DNA of 63,980 bases, counting the filler. It is 6 parts of 6 records of this genome, joined end to end, with 100 filler letters (N's around TTAATTAATTAA, not from the genome) between each part and the next. Parts side by side here need not be neighbours in the genome. Positions count along the whole stretch, not along the records: positions 41,487 to 47,798 come from SRR20825010_2396; 5 more parts are not named here. One strand, 5' to 3'. Under the pieces are notes generated by a model. It had not been told where the DNA came from, ran no database searches, and saw only the letters and a list, made by a program, of their open reading frames with translations. Below, piece after piece: positions 8,662-60,896 of the stretch (the stretch's first letter is position 1; every line of letters begins with the position of its first letter). Made by a program: the position numbers and the translations under genes.

Positions 8662-8761
8662 NNNNNNNNNNNNNNNNNNNNNNNNNNNNNNNNNNNNNNN
8701 NNNNNTTAATTAATTAANNNNNNNNNNNNNNNNNNNNNNNNNNNNNNNNNNNNNNNNNNNN
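8662..8761. other. Artificial contig linker (N44-TTAATTAATTAA-N44)
   Basis: N run with six-frame stop cassette; GC content and taxon change across it. Confidence 0.99.
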
Positions 8762-19460: not shown

Positions 19461-19560
19461 NNNNNNNNNNNNNNNNNNNNNNNNNNNNNNNNNNNNNNNN
19501 NNNNTTAATTAATTAANNNNNNNNNNNNNNNNNNNNNNNNNNNNNNNNNNNNNNNNNNNN
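19461..19560. other. Artificial contig linker
   Basis: N run with TTAATTAATTAA. Confidence 0.99.
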
Positions 19561-40392: not shown

Positions 40393-41386
40393 TTAAACCG
40401 TTTGTAATTTATAATTTTCAATAGTTTCGATGAATTGATCAAAAAGATACGTTGCATCGTGTGGTCCTGGACTTGCTTCAGGATGATACTGTACAGAAAA
40501 AGCTGGTTTGTTTTTAAGCCTTATTCCACTTGCAGTATAATCATTTAAATGCTCGTGAGTAATTTCGATATTTGGGTTCGCTTCTGCTTCTTCTCTATTA
40601 ATTGCAAAACCGTGATTTTGTGACGTAATTTCACCCTTACCGGTAACTAAATTCATAATTGGGTGGTTTATTCCGCGGTGACCGTTGTGCATTTTATAAG
40701 TTGATATTCCATTTGCTAATGCCAATACTTGATGCCCTAAACATATTCCGAACATTGGTAATTCCTTTTCCAAAATATTTTTTACAACTTCAATTGCGCT
40801 ATGAAGTGGTTCTGGATCTCCAGGACCGTTAGAGATAAAATACCCATCTGGATTAAAGGATTCCATTTCAGAAAAAGAAGCATTGTATGGAAATACTTTT
40901 ATATAGCAATCGCGTTCAGCAAGCCTACGCAGAATGTTTTTCTTTATTCCTAAATCCAATGCGGAAATTTTGTATTTAGCGTTTTCTTTTCCGAAGAAAT
41001 AAGGCTCTTTAGTTGAAACTTTTGAAGCGAGTTCCAATCCATTCATATTTGGAACTTCTGCTAGCTGTTTTTTAAGACCTTCTATATTATCAACTTCTGT
41101 TGAAATAACTGCGTTCATAGCACCGTTATCACGGATATAACTAACCAAAGCTCGGGTATCTACATCACTAATGGCAAGTAAATTATTTTTATTTAGAAAT
41201 TCCTCCAATGAATCATCTGCGGCATCACGTGAATAATGATAGCTAAAATTACGGACTACCAAACCTGCAATTTTAATCCCTTCGGATTCTACTTCATCTC
41301 TATTAGTACCATAATTACCGATATGTGCGTTTGTAGCAACCATAATCTGGCCAAAATAAGATGGATCTGTAAAAATTTCTTGATAG
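40393..41386 (-). CDS. carA: Carbamoyl-phosphate synthase small subunit, 5'-truncated
   Basis: Frame open to the contig end (YQEIFTDPSYFGQIM); 'SNGPGDP', 'GICLGHQ'. Confidence 0.96.
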
Positions 41387-41486
41387 NNNNNNNNNNNNNN
41401 NNNNNNNNNNNNNNNNNNNNNNNNNNNNNNTTAATTAATTAANNNNNNNNNNNNNNNNNNNNNNNNNNNNNNNNNNNNNNNNNNNN
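41387..41486. other. Artificial contig linker
   Basis: N run with TTAATTAATTAA. Confidence 0.99.
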
Positions 41487-41735
41487 AGCCAATTGCGCTT
41501 TCAATTGCTTCCACTGTCGCCAGGTGTGGCCAATACCCAACTTGCGCCATTTGCGCAAATCAACAGACACCACTTCATTCACGTGGCGGTTGCCACGCAC
41601 CAGGTCTGCAAACGGCTCTTCCACCATCCAGTCAATCTGGACGTTTGGATTGTGGGCATGAATGTCATTCAAAACCGGCAAGGCATGAATGACATCGCCC
41701 ATCGATGTAGTCTTAACAATTAAGATACGCTTCAT
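41487..41735 (-). CDS. waaC: Lipopolysaccharide heptosyltransferase I, 3'-truncated
   Basis: 'ILIVKTTSMGDVIHALP...IDWMVEEPF'. Confidence 0.9.
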
Positions 41736-41820
41736 GTAGCGCTTGAGTTGGTCGCAATCGCATCATTGTAAGCAGAAGCGAGCAATCATTCTGAACCGGG
41801 TCAGCCAAGGAACAATAAAT

Positions 41821-42627
41821 TTGAATAACCCTGCCAACAACCCCATTGCTTTGTCTGCAGTCTTGATTACCTTGAACGCAGAAAAACAGCTTGTGCCTGC
41901 GCTTGAAAGCCTGAGGTTTTGCGATGAAATTGTGGTGGTCGACACCAACAGCAGCGACAACACCGTGGCCGTGGCTGAACAAAATGGCGCGCGCGTGGTG
42001 CAACAAAACTGGCTGGGCTTCGGCCCGCAAAAACAGTTTGCCGTTGCACAAGCCCAAAACAACTGGGTATTGTGCCTGGATGCTGACGAACGGATAACAC
42101 CCGAGCTTGAGAAAAACATACGCGCGGTGATGACCCAAGCCAGGCAAGGCCTGTTACCCAAAGACGTGGTGGGTTTTGACATGCCACGCTGTAACTTCTT
42201 TTTAGGGCGCTACCTTCGCCACGGCGAAGGCTACCCGGATTATTCTCGCCGCCTGTTCAATCGGCAACACGCCAACTGGAGCGACGACGCCGTTCACGAG
42301 AAAGTACAAAGCAAAAAAACAGGCGCGCGTTTTGAGAAACTGCAGGGCGATTTGCTGCATGAATCGGCAGAAAACCTGGAAAGTTATTTGCAGAAACAGA
42401 ACCGCTACACCAGCATACAGGCGCAGGCTTTGGCTGCCCGCGGCAAATGGCCTGGGTCTGGAAAGCTGGTGTTGTCGCCGGTGGTTCGGTTCATCAAGTT
42501 TTATGTGGTGCGCAAAGGTTTTCTGGACGGATGGCCGGGCTTGGTACACATTGCGATCGGGTGCTTCAACAGCTTCATGAAATACGCGAAAACACGGGAG
42601 TTGATGCAGCAAAATCGCGAGCGATGA
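41821..42627 (+). CDS. GT2 glycosyltransferase (WaaE/KdtX-like)
   Basis: 'SAVLITLNAE', 'WLGFGPQKQ', 'LDADE', 'VHE'; TTG start after AAGGA. Confidence 0.88.
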   Translation: MNNPANNPIALSAVLITLNAEKQLVPALESLRFCDEIVVVDTNSSDNTVAVAEQNGARVVQQNWLGFGPQKQFAVAQAQNNWVLCLDADERITPELEKNIRAVMTQARQGLLPKDVVGFDMPRCNFFLGRYLRHGEGYPDYSRRLFNRQHANWSDDAVHEKVQSKKTGARFEKLQGDLLHESAENLESYLQKQNRYTSIQAQALAARGKWPGSGKLVLSPVVRFIKFYVVRKGFLDGWPGLVHIAIGCFNSFMKYAKTRELMQQNRER

Positions 42628-42672
42628 ATTGCGTGCGGCGTGCGTAAATATCATCCAAGCCCATGAACCTTG

Positions 42673-43131
42673 CAAGCCCCGTTTGCTTGAAGGCCCAAAT
42701 AAAAAGGGTCACCCCTTGCTTTGGGAACCGGAGGAGCATCCCAAAGCGGCGGGTTGAAGAAGATGTGGGCCTTCTTGAATCGCAAACTGTGGCCTGCGAA
42801 GATTCAGGTGCTTTGACTGAGATGCCGTGCCAGCAAAGCGTTGTGCCGCTGGTTCAACAATGGGTCACTGCTGCTTCAACGCTGATAAATCACCGATGCA
42901 GCACAAGCTGGCATATCGCTGGCGCTCGAAGAATTCCTACCCAGCTGAGCTTGCACAACAGTCACGTCTCGCCCGCCGTTCCCCCATCTGGAATGGATTA
43001 GGCGCGAAGCGGCTCCGCAAGGCGCCATTGCGCTTGCGGCATCCATTTCAGTTGGGAAAAGAAACGGCCACAGCCGCGCACATCACTTTGGGCGAGGCGG
43101 TTGGGCAAGCTTGGCTGGGTGGGAGTTCTTC
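42673..43131 (+). ncRNA. Candidate large structured non-coding RNA of unknown family
   Basis: About ten nested helices found by eye, including 42928-42959/43100-43131 (32 bp, 4 G-U pairs, 1 mismatch); G-U pairs favour the + strand. Confidence 0.6.
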
Positions 43132-43193
43132 ACGATCTGCCTGAATAAACAGACAAGTGAGTTTACTAAAGCGCCAACATCTAGAGGTAACAA

Positions 43194-43228
43194 TGTGCTG
43201 CTGCCGAAGCCCCTGCCCCGGCAGCACA
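43194..43228. terminator. Hairpin just downstream of gltL, possible terminator
   Basis: TGTGCTGC...GCAGCACA inverted repeat; no clear U tract. Confidence 0.4.
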
Positions 43229-43238
43229 GAACCCTGGA

Positions 43239-43967
43239 TCAGTGACCCAGAATTTTCGAGAGGAACAACTGCGCACGCTCAGAACGTGGCGTACCAAAAA
43301 AATCATCTTTGGTACAGTCTTCAACAATATTGCCCTGATCCATGAAAATAACCCGATCGGCAACTTTGCGTGCAAAACCCATTTCGTGGGTAACGCACAT
43401 CATGGTCATGCCTTCCTGGGCCAGTTCAACCATCACATCGAGCACCTCATTGACCATTTCAGGATCAAGTGCAGAAGTGGGTTCATCAAACAGCATGCAG
43501 ATGGGGTCCATCGACAAGGCACGTGCAATGGCCACGCGCTGCTGCTGCCCACCCGACAATTGGCCCGGAAACTTAGCTGCTTGCGCTTTCAAGCCCACGC
43601 GATCCAGAAGACCCAAGCCCTTGGCCATGGCCTCTTCCTTGGAGCGTCCCAACACTTTGATTTGTGCAAGGGTCAGGTTCTCGGTAATGGTAAGGTGCGG
43701 GAACAACTCAAAGTTCTGAAACACCATGCCCACGCGTGAACGCAGCTTGGGCAGATCCGTGCCCTTGGCACCTACGGAAAGACCATCAACCGTGATGACA
43801 CCTTCCTGAAAAGGCTCCAACATGTTCACGGTTTTAATCAAGGTGGACTTGCCTGAACCAGAGGGACCACACACCACCACAACTTCGCCTTTCTTGACCG
43901 ATGTTGTGCAATTGGTGAGCACCTGAAAACTTCCGTACCACTTACTTACTTTATTGATTTCAATCAC
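43239..43967 (-). CDS. gltL: Glutamate/aspartate ABC transporter ATP-binding protein
   Basis: '[19 protein letters not shown]', LSGGQQQR, '[12 protein letters not shown]'. Confidence 0.93.
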
Positions 43968-43979
43968 AGTGCTCTCCTG

Positions 43980-44666
43980 CTATCGAATGATTTGAGTTTT
44001 CTTCTGAAGCGCCTTGACCAACATTGACAAGCTGAAGCAAATCGCCAGATAAACCAGGGCCACAAAGGTGTACATCTCAACCAGCGAACTGTCGCGCTGC
44101 GCAATTTTCGACGCGGCACCCAGGAAATCGGTTACAGACAATACGTACACCAGGGATGTGTCCTGGAACAAAATAATGGTTTGGGTCAACAAAACTGGCA
44201 GCATGTTGCGGAAGGCCTGCGGCAGAATGATCAACCACATGGACTGACGGTAATTCAAGCCCAAGGCTTGGGCCGCACTGACCTGTCCCCTTGAAATACT
44301 TTGAATACCTGCCCGCATGATCTCGCAGAAAAACGCCGCTTCAAACATGATGAAAGTGATGTACGCCGAGCGATCTGGACCCACCTGCGGTGGACGCTCA
44401 TAACCCATGACAGACTGAAGAACAACTGGCACCAGAAAGTAGAACCAGAAAATCACGAGAATCAGGGGAATGGAACGCATCAGGTTCACATAACCCGCGG
44501 CAATCATGGCCAAGGGTTTGATGCTCGACAAACGTGCCAACGCCAGCAGGGTGCCAAAGAAAATACCACCCAAACATGCCACAACAGTTAGTTTTGCGGT
44601 GTAACCCAAACCCTGCATCAGGTAGGGCAGCGACGTCATGATTGCGCTGAAGTCAAAATCGTTCAT
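43980..44666 (-). CDS. gltK: Glutamate/aspartate ABC permease
   Basis: 'MRSIPL', 'EIMRAGIQSI', 'LTQTIILFQDTSLV'. Confidence 0.9.
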   Translation of the reverse strand: MNDFDFSAIMTSLPYLMQGLGYTAKLTVVACLGGIFFGTLLALARLSSIKPLAMIAAGYVNLMRSIPLILVIFWFYFLVPVVLQSVMGYERPPQVGPDRSAYITFIMFEAAFFCEIMRAGIQSISRGQVSAAQALGLNYRQSMWLIILPQAFRNMLPVLLTQTIILFQDTSLVYVLSVTDFLGAASKIAQRDSSLVEMYTFVALVYLAICFSLSMLVKALQKKTQIIR

Positions 44667-45406
44667 TATTTGCCTCCCGCAATGAAACCAGGCACAGATG
44701 TGCGCCGTTCAATCAAGGCCATCACCCTGTTCACCGTCATCGCCACGATCACGTACAACACAGTGGCCGCAATGTAAGCCTCGAAAAAAGCAAAGGTTAC
44801 TTCACCCATTTCTCGGGTACGGAATGTCAATTCCGTCAAACCGATGGTCAAGGCCACAGACGTATTTTTAATCAGGTTCATCGCCTCCGATGTCATCGGA
44901 GGAACAATGATTCGATACGCCATGGGCAACAGCACGAAACGGTAAGTTTGTGGTTCACTCAGGCCCAATGCGTAACCCGCAGCACGTTGACCACGCGACA
45001 GGGACAAAATACCCGACTTCACTTGCTCGGCCACGCGTGACGCAGTGAACAAACCCAGACACACCACAGAAGCCAGAAACTGGACGAATGTCGGATCTTG
45101 TTCGATCGACCATTCTTTCAAGGCGGGGATAAATTCAGGCACCACAAAGTACCAGAGAAAAAACTGGACGATCAGTGGAATGTTACGAAAAATTTCTACA
45201 TACACATTGCCAAGCATGGCCAATGGTTTGCTGGATGCGGTGCGTAACACACCCATCAAGGAACCCACAGTGAAGGCTATTACACCCGCAACTGAGGCAG
45301 TGGCAAGGGTCCACAGCAGGCCGGAAAACAACATTTCCCACCACACCAGGGTTTCACCTTCCACGATCGGCTGGAAAAACAACAGCCAATTTAAGTCGCT
45401 ATTCAT
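44666..45406 (-). CDS. gltJ: Glutamate/aspartate ABC permease
   Basis: 'YVEIFRNIPLIVQFFLWYF', 'LLPMAYRIIVPPMTSE'; ATG 45406 after GGGAG. Confidence 0.9.
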   Translation of the reverse strand: MNSDLNWLLFFQPIVEGETLVWWEMLFSGLLWTLATASVAGVIAFTVGSLMGVLRTASSKPLAMLGNVYVEIFRNIPLIVQFFLWYFVVPEFIPALKEWSIEQDPTFVQFLASVVCLGLFTASRVAEQVKSGILSLSRGQRAAGYALGLSEPQTYRFVLLPMAYRIIVPPMTSEAMNLIKNTSVALTIGLTELTFRTREMGEVTFAFFEAYIAATVLYVIVAMTVNRVMALIERRTSVPGFIAGGK

Positions 45407-45502
45407 TTTGGATACTCCCGAGTCAGGATTCTCGGCCAATACAAGGAAAAGGCCGGCTTACGTGTGCAAACGCGCAGCCGGCCTGTGACTGACCAAGGCG
45501 TA

Positions 45503-46402
45503 TTATTTAACGCCCTTGTCGTTTGGATTTGCAAATGCTTCCTTCAATAGCGGAGACATCGGGAAATTCAGGTTCACGTTCTTCGGTGGAATGTTGCTCA
45601 TGAACCACTTGGTGTACAGCTTCTCTGCTTCACCAGACTTGATCATGCCATTGACGCTTTCGTCCAGCAGTGCTTTGAACTGGGGGTCATCCTTGCGCAA
45701 CATGATGCCGTAAGGTTCTGTGCGCAGAATTTCTGGCAGGAACATGAACTCATCGGGGTTCTTGCTTTGGGCAACCAAACCAGCGATCAGGATGTCGTCC
45801 ATCACGAAAGCTTTTGCACGGTCATTGGCCACCAACAGGAAGCTTTCAGCGTGGTCTTTGCCGTAAATTTCCTTGAAATTGATGTTCGCGCCTTTTTCGT
45901 TTTGCTTGATCAGCTGAACAGAGGTGGTACCGGATGTGGTGGCAATCGGTTGACCATCAAGGTCAGCCAGGTTTTTGATGCCGCTGCTTTTCTTCACAAC
46001 CACTTTAACGCTGGTAATAAAGGTGCTATTGGCAAAGGAAACCTGTTCCTGACGAGCCACGGAATTGGTGGTCGAACCACATTCCATGTCAACGGTGCCG
46101 TTTTGCAGCAAAGGAATACGGTTGGCGGAAGTTACGGGCTGCAACTCAACTTTCAGGTTGGGCATCTTCAGCTTGGCTTTCACCGCGTCAACAACCTTGT
46201 TACACATGTCCATGTGATAACCGATGGGCTTTTGATTGTTGTCCAGGTATGAAAATGGAACAGACGACTCACGGAACCCGACCACGATTGTTTTGGTGTC
46301 GGAGATTTTTTTCAAAGTACCCGTAAGATCTTGGGCAACTGCGGGCTGTACAGCGGCGACACTGGCCACGGCCAACGCTGCTGCGAATAGATTCCTTTTC
46401 AT
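45503..46402 (-). CDS. gltI: Glutamate/aspartate-binding periplasmic protein
   Basis: 'RESSVPFSY', 'VTSANRIPLLQNGTVDMECGSTTN', 'MDDILIAG'; ATG 46402 after AAGGAG. Confidence 0.93.
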   Translation of the reverse strand: MKRNLFAAALAVASVAAVQPAVAQDLTGTLKKISDTKTIVVGFRESSVPFSYLDNNQKPIGYHMDMCNKVVDAVKAKLKMPNLKVELQPVTSANRIPLLQNGTVDMECGSTTNSVARQEQVSFANSTFITSVKVVVKKSSGIKNLADLDGQPIATTSGTTSVQLIKQNEKGANINFKEIYGKDHAESFLLVANDRAKAFVMDDILIAGLVAQSKNPDEFMFLPEILRTEPYGIMLRKDDPQFKALLDESVNGMIKSGEAEKLYTKWFMSNIPPKNVNLNFPMSPLLKEAFANPNDKGVK

Positions 46403-46478
46403 TTTTGCTCCTTGAATGAAAAAAATTAAGCACAAACTGTGCGCACACCCTCCGAAACGCAAACAACGCGCAGCGGTA

Positions 46479-47798
46479 TTAGAGTTTTATTCTCCGAGGA
46501 CGGGTGAGAACCTCGGGCCTGAGGATTTCATTCAACTGCTGCTCTGACAGTAAGCCTTTTTCGAGAACCAGATCAGAAACTTTCCGACCGGTTTTCAATG
46601 CAGTTTTTGCAATCTCAGATGCTTGATCATAGCCTATGTAGGGGTTGAGTGATGTGGCCAAACTGGCCGATTCCTCGACCCTTTGACGCAAAAGTGACTC
46701 ATTTGCGGTAATCCCTAATACGCAATTCTTGCTCAGGGTTTTGCACGCAGCAGTCAGGTGGTAAATGCTTTTGAAAAGACTCCATGCAATGATGGGCTCA
46801 AAGGCATTCAATTGCAGCTGACCGGCTTCGGCCGCCATGGTCACAGTGACATCGTTGCCGATCACCTCGAACGCCACCTGGTTCACCACTTCCGGAATGA
46901 CGGGGTTGACCTTGCCTGGCATGATGGAAGATCCAGCTGCGCGCGGTGGCAGATTGATTTCATTCAGGCCGGCTTGCGGGCCTGACGACAGCAAACGCAA
47001 GTCGTTGCACATTTTGGAAAGCTTGACCGCCACACGCTTGAGCACACCGGAAAGCTGCACGAACGAACCTGTGTCTTGCGTGGCTTCCACCAAATCAGCG
47101 GCGGTGACCAAACCCAGTTGTGTAATTTCTTCCAGGTAATGGCGTGCGCGCGCTGCGTATTCCGGGTCGGTATTGATACCTGTGCCAATGGCTGTGGCGC
47201 CTAGGTTGATTTCGGATATCAGGCTGGTGGCTTCGCGCAAGCGGGCCATGTCTTCACCCAGCATCACTGAAAATGTGGCGAATTCCTGCCCCAGGGTCAT
47301 GGGCACGGCATCTTGCAACTGGGTGCGACCGATCTTCAATATTTTCCGGAACTCGAAGGCTTTTTCGCCAAAGGCCTCTTTCAGGTCTTCCATGGCAATC
47401 AGCAGCCCCGAAATGGCGTTGATCAAACCAATTTTCACGGCGGTGGGATAAACATCATTGGTGCTTTGCGAGGCATTCACATGCTCGATGGGATGCACCA
47501 TTTTGTAATCGCCTTTTTTGCCGCCCATAATTTCAATGGCACGGTTGGCAATTACCTCGTTGGCATTCATGTTGGTGGACGTACCCGCACCGCCTTGAAT
47601 GACATCGACCACAAACTGATCGTGCAACTTGCCAGTGCGAATTTCTTTGCAGGCTTGGGTAATGGCTTTTGCCAGTTCGGGAGAAACCGTGTCCAGGTCA
47701 GCATTGGCCTTGGTTGCCGCCCACTTGACGGCGGCAAGGGCATTGATCAGCTCGGGCGCATGGTAGAGAGGAAACCCGGTGATTTGGTAATTGTCCAG
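46479..47798 (-). CDS. aspA: Aspartate ammonia-lyase, 5'-truncated
   Basis: 'QGGAGTSTNMNANE', 'GSSIMPGKVNPVIPE', 'AEAGQLQLN'. Confidence 0.93.
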   Translation of the reverse strand: MDNYQITGFPLYHAPELINALAAVKWAATKANADLDTVSPELAKAITQACKEIRTGKLHDQFVVDVIQGGAGTSTNMNANEVIANRAIEIMGGKKGDYKMVHPIEHVNASQSTNDVYPTAVKIGLINAISGLLIAMEDLKEAFGEKAFEFRKILKIGRTQLQDAVPMTLGQEFATFSVMLGEDMARLREATSLISEINLGATAIGTGINTDPEYAARARHYLEEITQLGLVTAADLVEATQDTGSFVQLSGVLKRVAVKLSKMCNDLRLLSSGPQAGLNEINLPPRAAGSSIMPGKVNPVIPEVVNQVAFEVIGNDVTVTMAAEAGQLQLNAFEPIIAWSLFKSIYHLTAACKTLSKNCVLGITANESLLRQRVEESASLATSLNPYIGYDQASEIAKTALKTGRKVSDLVLEKGLLSEQQLNEILRPEVLTRPRRIKL

Positions 47799-47898
47799 NN
47801 NNNNNNNNNNNNNNNNNNNNNNNNNNNNNNNNNNNNNNNNNNTTAATTAATTAANNNNNNNNNNNNNNNNNNNNNNNNNNNNNNNNNNNNNNNNNNNN
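47799..47898. other. Artificial contig linker
   Basis: N run with TTAATTAATTAA. Confidence 0.99.
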
Positions 47899-60796: not shown

Positions 60797-60896
60797 NNNN
60801 NNNNNNNNNNNNNNNNNNNNNNNNNNNNNNNNNNNNNNNNTTAATTAATTAANNNNNNNNNNNNNNNNNNNNNNNNNNNNNNNNNNNNNNNNNNNN
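60797..60896. other. Artificial contig linker
   Basis: N run with TTAATTAATTAA. Confidence 0.99.

What the first reader, a model, noticed from the sequence alone, without database searches (positions are those of the whole stretch)
42673..43131. Candidate ~460-nt multi-domain structured ncRNA between GT2 and gltL
Seen in sequence: the 610-nt gap between convergent genes is almost fully base-paired. 3' domain: a 32-bp helix 42928-42959/43100-43131 (4 G-U, 1 mismatch), continued by 42965-74/43090-99, 42975-80/43063-68, 42983-86/43053-56, 42988-98/43041-51 and an apical stem 43015-21/43033-39. Two unpaired strands are complementary (GCGGCT 43009-14 with AGCCGC 43072-77), which suggests a pseudoknot. 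5' domain: a multiloop closed by 42689-97/42766-74 containing hairpins 42704-17 and 42718-47, then hairpins 42776-806, 42810-39 and 42869-903; GTTGAA (42753-58) could pair with TTCAAC (42875-80 or 42853-58). The six G-U pairs in the main helices would be A-C mismatches on the other strand, so selection for folding acts on the + strand. I see no RNase P, tmRNA, 6S, SRP, riboswitch or group II domain V signature. Inference: an undescribed large ncRNA, or a non-autonomous mobile element relic such as an IS200/605 omega-RNA-like element, in a Burkholderiales genome.
Basis: partly seen in the sequence, partly recalled or inferred. Interest (0 to 1): 0.82.

Follow-up and report, generated by a model that had tools for sequence, protein, structure and literature searches.

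The report
Structured repeat element family in Limnobacter
The strongly folded half of this gene gap is one copy of an undescribed 205-base hairpin-shaped repeat scattered through some Limnobacter genomes, and the other half is unrelated, unstable local sequence, so this is not one large RNA gene.

Summary
The described helices are real. The main helix has 27 Watson-Crick pairs, 4 G-U pairs and 1 mismatch, and the gap folds far better than shuffles (z -12.1 on +, -7.3 on -). It is not one 460-nt RNA.

**3' domain (42927-43132).** This is one copy of a ~205-nt interspersed structured repeat:
- It occurs in 11 of 26 Limnobacter genomes, with up to 8 strong copies per genome.
- It was found in no non-Limnobacter genome of the 151 family-level genomes searched.
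- It has no Rfam match.
- Across 22 copies, 96% of cells pair and 53 of 78 pairs carry compensatory changes.
- The three-way-junction core is more conserved than neighbouring synonymous sites. The closing helix keeps its pairing but not its sequence.
- Nine of 12 independent loci lie between convergent genes.

**5' domain.** It occurs only at this locus. It folds weakly on the + strand (z -2.4), and part of it is missing in a roughly 99%-identical strain.

**Not supported.** The pseudoknot, the ORFs and an IS200/605 omega-RNA link.

**Best reading.** A REP/ERIC-like structured repeat that works as RNA in read-through transcripts. This mechanism is inferred. No RNA data were available.

The parts
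41743..42627 (+). Family-2 glycosyltransferase gene, upstream neighbour on the sense side of the element.
   Evidence: Pfam Glycos_transf_2, E 3.7e-14. 91% aa identity to two Limnobacter-type MAG loci.
42628..42788 (.). It is not part of the repeat family.
   Evidence: Single copy per genome, only at this locus, in 5 of 26 genomes. The window copy lacks 47 nt present in the 4 orthologs that cover that stretch. Absent in G012, where a clean 12-bp hairpin remains. 42611-42788 are skipped in a contig that differs at 7 of 823 covered letters. Covariation is seen mostly in the outer helix.
42789..42926 (.). Unit Y: poorly conserved spacer holding hairpins 42810-42839 and 42869-42903.
   Evidence: The orthologous gaps are largely unalignable or deleted here. 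The whole 5' domain has z only -2.4 on the + strand.
42927..43132 (+). One complete copy of the ~205-nt structured interspersed repeat (family 1).
   Evidence: Covariance-model hit of 219.8 bits on + against 62.6 on -. It is the only copy in the window.
42928..42959 (+). 5' arm of the closing helix. It pairs with 43100-43131.
   Evidence: 27 Watson-Crick, 4 G-U and 1 mismatch. In helix 1, 29 of 31 pairs have changes on both sides across copies.
42965..43099 (+). Sequence-conserved core: inner helices, a three-way junction (P4 42990-42998/43041-43047; hairpin 43000-43014 with a GCGAAGC triloop motif; bulged-G hairpin 43015-43039) and a 3' internal loop.
   Evidence: Core identity between locus orthologs is 0.87-0.94 in the six pairs with an intact core, against 0.58-0.68 at gltL third codon positions.
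43100..43131 (+). 3' arm of the closing helix.
43195..43227 (-). Hairpin directly after the gltL stop codon. It is kept in all orthologous gaps, filled or empty, and is probably the gltL transcript-end hairpin.
   Evidence: Read directly from the sequences. My strict scan did not flag it as a canonical terminator.
43239..43967 (-). gltL-like ABC transporter ATPase, the convergent neighbour.
   Evidence: Pfam ABC_tran, E 6.8e-33. 91-98% aa identity in 13 Limnobacter loci.

Best explanation
**What it is (shown).** Window 42927-43132 is one copy of an undescribed ~205-nt non-coding interspersed repeat, found here only in a subclade of Limnobacter. It has no promoter-like site and no terminator-like site of its own.

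**Structure (shown).** On its sense strand it folds into a closing helix of about 40 bp, interrupted by a conserved 5-nt bulge and capped by a three-way junction.
- The helix keeps its pairing but not its sequence.
- The junction core keeps its sequence more tightly than the synonymous sites of the neighbouring gene.

**Setting (shown).** Copies lie mainly in the short gaps between convergent genes. A related and more abundant ~183-nt family with the same architecture exists in the same genomes.

**The 5' domain (shown).**

**How it works (inferred).** The element is transcribed by read-through from a flanking gene and acts as RNA.
- The sequence-free helix serves as an insulating or processing stem. 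It could be a barrier to 3' exonucleases, a double-strand-specific RNase substrate, or both.
- The conserved junction is a binding site for a host factor.
- This would make it a portable 3'-end module comparable in role to REP/BIME, ERIC or SPRITE elements.
- How copies spread is not resolved.
For: **Family and copy number.** The model hit 11 of 26 Limnobacter genomes. There are 8 strong copies in G026 and 5 plus contig-end fragments in G014.

**Structure.**
- An independent MAFFT alignment of 23 copies gives 27 of 51 predicted pairs with compensatory changes.
- A model-fitted alignment of 22 copies gives 96.0% of cells paired against 81.3% in shuffles, and 53 of 78 pairs changed on both sides. 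None of 500 shuffles reached these values. Slid controls paired at 36-42%.

**Strand.** 70 G-U against 20 A-C cells. MFE is -121.9 on the sense strand and -104.9 on the antisense strand.

**Constraint in place.** In the six ortholog pairs at the GT2/gltL locus with an intact core, core identity is 0.87-0.94 and gltL third-position identity is 0.58-0.68.

**No coding.** No frame stays open across copies.

**Context.**
- Nine convergent, 3 co-directional and 0 divergent among 12 independent loci.
- Gaps to the flanking stop codons are often 18-60 nt.
- My scan found no canonical terminator between the element and the sense-side gene in 7 of 9 loci, or the antisense-side gene in 9 of 9 loci.
- No promoter-like site lies in 42400-43400.

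**Superfamily.** A 183-nt family shares the architecture and the hairpin motif.

**Literature (passages read in PMC3184786).** REP elements are biased to convergent gaps and BIMEs affect mRNA stability. [quoted passage not shown]
Against: - There is no transcript evidence of any kind. No RNA run holds the stretch.
- The element carries no U-tract after the helix, so it is not a classical intrinsic terminator.
- At the clpB locus one species (G009) has the element inverted relative to its flanks. A strictly gene-specific 3'UTR role would not tolerate that.
- Many genomes have lost or eroded it. The gap is 57-108 nt in 10 of 13 Limnobacter loci, including the two closest relatives, so it is dispensable.
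- Long inverted repeats can keep their arms complementary by intrastrand template switching, without selection. This weakens covariation in the outer helix as proof of function.
- Between G026 and G014 the distal arms are only 14 of 40 identical although gltL third positions are 0.757 identical. Point-mutation-plus-selection does not explain that.
- G-T wobble pairs would equally favour a single-stranded DNA fold.
Confidence: 0.5

Rival explanations
1. A purely selfish, non-autonomous mobile element (MITE-like). The hairpin with its junction would be the single-stranded or cruciform DNA form recognised by a trans-acting transposase or recombinase, and convergent gaps would simply be harmless landing sites.
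For: - Copy number varies from 0 to about 8 among genomes of one genus.
- One subfamily with shared arms has multiplied in G026 and G014.
- Copies sit at contig ends in G014.
- Copies erode through deletions between short direct repeats.
- The hairpin carries GCGAAGC, the motif described as an extraordinarily stable DNA mini-hairpin (abstract of PMC13037366, seen in the listing).
- In G026, 7 of 8 strong copies have their sense strand on the lagging strand relative to dnaA.
Against: - No target-site duplication or clean filled/empty junction could be defined.
- The arms are not conserved between subfamilies, which is the opposite of transposase-recognised terminal repeats.
- The multiplied copies share up to about 350 nt of extra upstream flank. 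That looks like segmental spread rather than transposition of a defined unit.
- Within-genome identity is only about 82-92%.
- Resident orthologous cores are more conserved than synonymous sites.
- A Y1 transposase is absent from 4 of 5 carrier genomes.
- The replication-strand bias rests on only 6 independent loci.
Confidence: 0.25
2. A DNA-level chromosome element, comparable to BIME/REP gyrase or IHF sites. It would sit where convergent transcription accumulates positive supercoils, with the palindrome extruding as a cruciform or binding a nucleoid protein.
For: - The bias to convergent gaps: 9 of 12 independent loci.
- The orientation flip tolerated in G009.
- BIMEs bind IHF, DNA polymerase I and gyrase (passage in PMC3184786).
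Against: - The strand asymmetry of wobble pairs (70 against 20) is not expected for duplex-DNA recognition.
- Neither are compensatory changes in 5-bp junction hairpins (helix 6: 5 of 5 pairs changed on both sides).
Confidence: 0.1
3. One reading: the whole of 42673-43131 is one ~460-nt multi-domain ncRNA gene.
For: - Both halves co-occur in the window and in 5 other genomes.
- The whole gap has z -12.1.
Against: - The domains occur independently of each other.
- The 5' part has z -2.4 on + and folds better on -.
- Positions 42611-42788 are absent in a near-identical strain.
- Large indels differ between orthologs.
- There is no promoter-like site.
- The proposed inter-domain pairings are not conserved.
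Confidence: 0.04
4. A relic of an IS200/IS605-type element: an omega-RNA or HEARO-like guide-RNA scaffold left behind after loss of the nuclease gene.
For: Only a general resemblance: a large structured RNA-like fold, multiple copies, and no ORF.
Against: - No Rfam hit, HEARO included, at E<=10 in the window or E<=1 in relatives.
- No copy examined adjoins a nuclease or transposase gene.
- The Y1_Tnp domain was found in 1 of 5 carrier genomes.
Confidence: 0.02

Closest known systems
ERIC / IRU and Correia (CREE/NEMIS) elements: structured intergenic repeats of Enterobacteriaceae and Neisseria
   Same: They are non-coding imperfect palindromes of roughly 100-160 bp present in many copies in intergenic regions (sizes from Table 1 of PMC3184786). 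That they are co-transcribed with neighbouring genes, and fold as RNA hairpins able to affect transcript fate, is recalled and comes from no call.
   Different: In those families the terminal inverted repeats are the conserved part, and TA target duplications are seen (passage in PMC3184786). Here the arms vary while a central three-way junction is the conserved part, and no duplication was found. The copy number is much lower and the range is a subclade of one genus.
REP / BIME elements (and REPINs with their RAYT transposase)
   Same: Extragenic palindromes with a bias to gaps between convergent genes and effects on mRNA stability (passage in PMC3184786).
   Different: REPs are 20-40-nt G+C-rich stem-loops present in hundreds of copies (size recalled). 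This element is ~205 nt with a branched core. The Y1 (RAYT-type) transposase domain is absent from 4 of 5 carrier genomes.
[quoted passage not shown]
   Same: [quoted passage not shown]
   Different: SPRITE resembles an intrinsic terminator. This element has no U-tract, is twice as long, and has a three-way junction.
bcr1 of the Bacillus cereus group
   Same: An interspersed repeat of about 155 bp for which conserved RNA structure with compensatory changes was reported (recalled; only its table row and a citation were seen).
   Different: It is an unrelated sequence in a different phylum. bcr1 has defined ends and a target duplication (recalled).

Membership tests
Any Rfam family (RNase P, tmRNA, 6S, SRP, riboswitches, group II intron, HEARO, ribozymes) | Covariance-model match at or near the gathering score. 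| tested here: not met
   0 matches at E<=10 in window 42000-43800. In 14 related loci the only hits were bxd_5 at E 0.64 and mir-3174 at E 0.79, both far below their gathering scores. ARAGORN found no tRNA or tmRNA in the contig.
MITE | Small, non-coding, and present in multiple dispersed copies. | tested here: met
   About 205 nt. No frame is shared across copies. Present in 11 of 26 genomes, with up to 8 strong copies.
MITE | Terminal inverted repeats conserved in sequence among copies and shared with an autonomous IS. | tested here: not met
   The arms are inverted repeats, but at least five unrelated arm sequences occur among the 23 copies. No copy with an internal ORF was found by model or BLAST searches. 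An IS partner was not searched for exhaustively.
MITE | Target-site duplication at filled versus empty sites. | tested here: inconclusive
   Empty orthologous sites exist, but their flanks are too diverged to place junctions. Losses occur between short direct repeats.
REP/REPIN-RAYT system | A RAYT (Y1 transposase) gene in the genomes that carry the repeats. | tested here: not met
   PF01797 was found in 1 of 5 carrier genomes and is absent from the single-contig G026, which has 8 strong copies.
IS200/IS605 omega-RNA / HEARO | Adjoins or overlaps an iscB or tnpB gene, and matches the RNA model. | tested here: not met
   The neighbours are GT2 and an ABC ATPase, and housekeeping genes at other loci. 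There is no Rfam hit.
Integron attC site | Flanks mobile gene cassettes in an array. | tested here: not met
   Three direct pairs flank 1-3 genes. The M23-peptidase pair next to lysS is conserved in other genomes without the elements, and a second pair brackets aconitase. No arrays were seen. An integrase was not searched for.
Intrinsic (Rho-independent) terminator | G+C-rich hairpin followed by a U-tract. | tested here: not met
   No T-run follows either end of the helix. The scan reports no terminator-like site that uses the outer helix.

The most novel reading that the evidence does not exclude
The element is a portable, self-insulating ncRNA cassette. Wherever it lands between convergent genes it is transcribed by read-through. 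The sequence-free ~40-bp stem is cut by a double-strand-specific RNase, which releases a ~140-nt three-way-junction RNA that acts in trans with a dedicated protein. On this reading the arms are rewritten faster than neutral drift by hairpin-templated conversion, which would explain the arm replacement between G026 and G014 and the flip seen in G009.
Probability: 0.15. Interest if true: 0.7.

Novelty: new variant of a known kind. Interest (0 to 1): 0.42.

Why it matters
Structured intergenic repeats are usually dismissed as selfish DNA. This family has an unusual signature: a branched core that is held more tightly than synonymous sites in copies that have stayed at one locus across species, combined with a closing helix that is free in sequence but fixed in pairing.

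That combination is what a working RNA or protein-binding module would show. It makes the family a tractable case for asking whether such repeats are domesticated, for instance as transcript-end modules between convergent genes.

There is also a practical point for genome scans. A very strong folding z-score in a long gap can come from one repeat copy sitting next to unrelated sequence.

Tried and rejected
- **Own genome.** None is held for this window. The window is six contigs of different G+C joined by N linkers, so only 41487-47798 belongs to this organism.
- **Plasmid and phage collections.** The gap has no blastn match in either.
- **RNA evidence.** No RNA holder was listed. Two small contigs from runs labelled cDNA, but marked 'probably DNA', cover 43117-43304 only. 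They come from one study and support no conclusion.
- **Gene-cassette idea.** Rejected. The M23-peptidase pair is conserved in genomes that lack the elements. A TacA/GNAT pair in G007 is flanked by two copies but stands alone as a case.
- **Arms captured from elsewhere in the genome.** Rejected. The distal arms of the G014 and G026 copies match only their own partner arm; one other match had E 0.02.
- **Arms as pre-existing target hairpins.** Not supported for the repeat family, because the multiplied subfamily carries its arms with it.
- **Occurrence in phages or other Burkholderiales.**
  - The hairpin motif occurs in 16 IMG/VR contigs and as single hits in 3 other genomes. None of these 19 loci matches the model.
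  - The reversed-pattern control also gave 4 single hits in the 401 genomes.
- **Filled/empty junctions at a third locus.** The flanks are too diverged to place them.
- **A correction.** An early note said the G026/G014 flanks at this locus were about 97% identical. That was wrong: gltL is 90.9% identical.
- **Literature.** 'Limnobacter + repeat + intergenic' returned 6 papers, none relevant by title or abstract.
- **Not used.** The metagenome-contig scan and the third model slot.

Full report
**Setting**

The window is not one molecule. Paired 44-N linkers around TTAATTAATTAA split it into six pieces with G+C from 0.29 to 0.64. The finding lies in the piece 41487-47798.

That piece carries a family-2 glycosyltransferase gene (41743-42627, +), the 611-nt gap, and then a convergent gltL-like ABC ATPase (43239-43967, -) followed by two permease genes. 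The glycosyltransferase is 91% identical to two Limnobacter-type MAG loci and 79-82% identical to named Limnobacter species. No whole genome is held for the window.

**The observation**

All the listed helices exist. The 32-bp helix has 27 Watson-Crick pairs, 4 G-U pairs and 1 mismatch.

| Stretch | Strand | Fold |
|---|---|---|
| whole gap 42628-43238 | + | -272.1 kcal/mol against -217.2 +/- 4.5 in shuffles, z -12.1 |
| whole gap 42628-43238 | - | z -7.3 |
| 3' domain 42927-43132 | + / - | z -9.7 / -6.8 |
| 5' domain 42628-42926 | + / - | z -2.4 / -4.8 |

Splitting the gap shows that the 3' domain carries the signal. Rfam gives nothing at E<=10. The gap has no match in the plasmid or phage collections. 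There is no promoter-like site in 42400-43400.

**The gap is present in some relatives and absent in others**

GT2 followed by gltL is conserved in 13 Limnobacter loci. The gap length varies:
- 57-108 nt in ten of them, including the two closest relatives;
- 611 nt in L. olei P1 (77% identical to the window);
- about 310 nt in one MAG, with internal deletions;
- 178 nt in L. alexandrii, as a remnant.

**The 3' domain is a repeat**

A search of five relatives found the inner 140 nt at a second locus, between a 292-aa gene and clpB. Aligning two copies from each locus showed a conserved core inside a closing helix of entirely different sequence that still pairs. Twenty of 78 pairs are compensatory.

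A covariance model built from these four copies gave these results:
- It hit 11 of 26 Limnobacter genomes.
- There are 8 strong copies in the single-contig genome G026, and 5 plus contig-end fragments in G014.
- Of 151 sampled genomes of the family, the only two hit were Limnobacter.
- The window holds one copy.

**Structure**

An independent MAFFT alignment of 23 copies gives 27 of 51 predicted pairs with compensatory changes. On the model-fitted alignment of 22 copies (21 distinct):
- 96.0% of cells pair, against 81.3% in shuffles;
- 53 of 78 pairs have changes on both sides;
- none of 500 shuffles reaches any of the five measures;
- sliding the partners by 1-3 columns drops pairing to 36-42%.

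A fitted alignment leans towards its own model, which is why the MAFFT result is also given.

The fold has these parts:
- an outer helix of about 31 pairs;
- a conserved 5-nt bulge;
- two G+C-rich helices;
- a helix with GGAATGGAT pairing to ATCCATT;
- a three-way junction bearing a hairpin with a GCGAAGC (GNA-type) triloop and a 10-bp hairpin with a bulged G.

Wobble pairs favour the sense strand, with 70 G-U against 20 A-C cells. No reading frame is open across copies. The proposed pseudoknot is complete in only 3 of 22 copies and shows no compensation.

**Constraint in place**

For orthologous copies at the GT2/gltL locus, in the six pairs with an intact core, core identity is 0.87-0.94 while gltL third codon positions are 0.58-0.68 identical. 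Copies that have stayed at one locus are therefore under purifying selection on core sequence. Decaying selfish DNA would not show that.

The distal arms behave differently. Their identity ranges from 0.33 to 0.86. Between G026 and G014 they are 14 of 40 identical although third positions are 0.757 identical. The arms there have been replaced faster than neutral change. They match nothing else in those genomes except each other. I cannot explain this. Hairpin-templated conversion is a guess.

At the clpB locus the whole element is inverted relative to its flanks in one of five species.

**Context**

Counting orthologs once gives 12 loci: 9 convergent, 3 co-directional and 0 divergent. Gaps to the flanking stop codons are often 18-60 nt. 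A strict scan of my own found no canonical terminator between the element and the sense-side gene in 7 of 9 loci, or the antisense-side gene in 9 of 9 loci. The element is therefore likely to be reached by transcription from both sides.

Three direct pairs of copies bracket 1-3 genes:
- an M23 peptidase pair;
- a TacA/GNAT toxin-antitoxin pair;
- an aconitase operon.

The M23 pair is conserved without elements in other genomes, so these are not cassettes.

In G026, 7 of 8 strong copies have the sense strand on the lagging strand relative to dnaA. This rests on only six independent loci.

**A superfamily**

The improved model also scores 42-60 bits on a ~183-nt repeat with the same architecture and the same hairpin motif. 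That repeat is abundant in about 13 of the 26 genomes. The shared 23-nt motif occurs 11 times in L. olei. In 401 sampled Burkholderiales genomes it gives only three other single hits, and the reversed control gives four. None of those three loci, and none of 16 IMG/VR contigs that hold the motif, matches the model. Neither family matches Rfam.

**The 5' domain**

It is found only at this locus, in 6 of 26 genomes. It has two parts.
- **Unit X (about 42628-42788).**
  - It is a single-copy, well-conserved stretch (86-90% identical among four genomes), and its outer helix covaries.
  - The window copy lacks 47 nt present in the four orthologs that cover that stretch.
  - One genome lacks X and retains a clean 12-bp hairpin.
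  - A 64-kb contig that differs at only 7 of the 823 letters it covers skips 42611-42788.
- **Unit Y (42789-42926).** It is poorly conserved.

So the gap is a patchwork of separable hairpin units that erode by deletions between short direct repeats. It is not one RNA.

**What it most likely is and does**

Shown: an undescribed family of structured interspersed repeats with a constrained branched core and a helix constrained only in pairing, sitting in convergent gaps.

Inferred: it acts as RNA in read-through transcripts. On this reading the helix is an insulating or processing stem and the junction is a factor-binding site. The role would be comparable to that of REP/BIME, ERIC or SPRITE elements. 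Convergent-gap bias and effects on mRNA stability for such elements are described in passages of PMC3184786 that I read.

Against this reading:
- there are no transcript data;
- the element is dispensable in many genomes;
- one species tolerates an inversion;
- the GCGAAGC motif is known as a very stable DNA mini-hairpin (abstract of PMC13037366), so a single-stranded DNA role, and thus a MITE-like life cycle, remains a serious rival.

A RAYT or IS200-type partner is unlikely, because the Y1 domain is found in 1 of 5 carriers.

**Verdict**

The single-large-ncRNA reading is not supported. The 3' domain is a new structured repeat family. It is of moderate interest because of its inverted conservation pattern and the in-place constraint on its core.

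Noticed in passing
window 8662-8761, 19461-19560, 41387-41486, 47799-47898, 60797-60896: The window is six unrelated contigs (G+C 0.29-0.64) joined by paired 44-N linkers around TTAATTAATTAA. Features must not be read across these joints. The carA-like gene at 40393-41343 is cut by one of them.
   Followed up: partly
L104:5300-5540 (G026) and many sites in about 13 Limnobacter genomes, e.g. L116-L128: A second, more abundant ~183-nt structured repeat has the same long-helix-plus-three-way-junction architecture and a shared hairpin motif. It is often adjacent to copies of the 205-nt family.
   Followed up: partly
L075:1797-1934 (G026), also L054 and L052: A perfect 9-nt tandem array, (GCGGACTTG) with 15 copies in G026, lies next to the clpB-locus copy. 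Shorter arrays sit at the same locus in other species.
   Followed up: no
L105:2197-3585 (G007): Two divergent copies of the repeat in the same orientation bracket a TacA antitoxin and GNAT-toxin gene pair.
   Followed up: partly
L060:1496-1703 (G009) against L059, L061, L065, L075: At the clpB locus the whole element is inverted relative to its flanking genes in one of five species. This is as expected from recombination between its own arms.
   Followed up: partly
L070:1501-1704 (G026) against L081:1501-1651 (G014): The distal ~20 bp of both arms are unrelated between these orthologous copies (14 of 40 identical), while the core and gltL third positions are 0.93 and 0.757 identical. The G014 copy also lacks the junction through a ~55-nt deletion.
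   Followed up: partly
L063:1151-1183 (G012) against L006:4889-5080 (G001): Two near-identical gaps differ by the presence of unit X. Its absence leaves a perfect 12-bp hairpin, and short TTGCG repeats lie at both edges of X.
   Followed up: partly
window 42703-42717, - strand: A terminator-like hairpin with a T-run points towards the glycosyltransferase gene, and the 5' domain folds better on the - strand (z -4.8 against -2.4). A minus-strand transcript ending here is possible.
   Followed up: no
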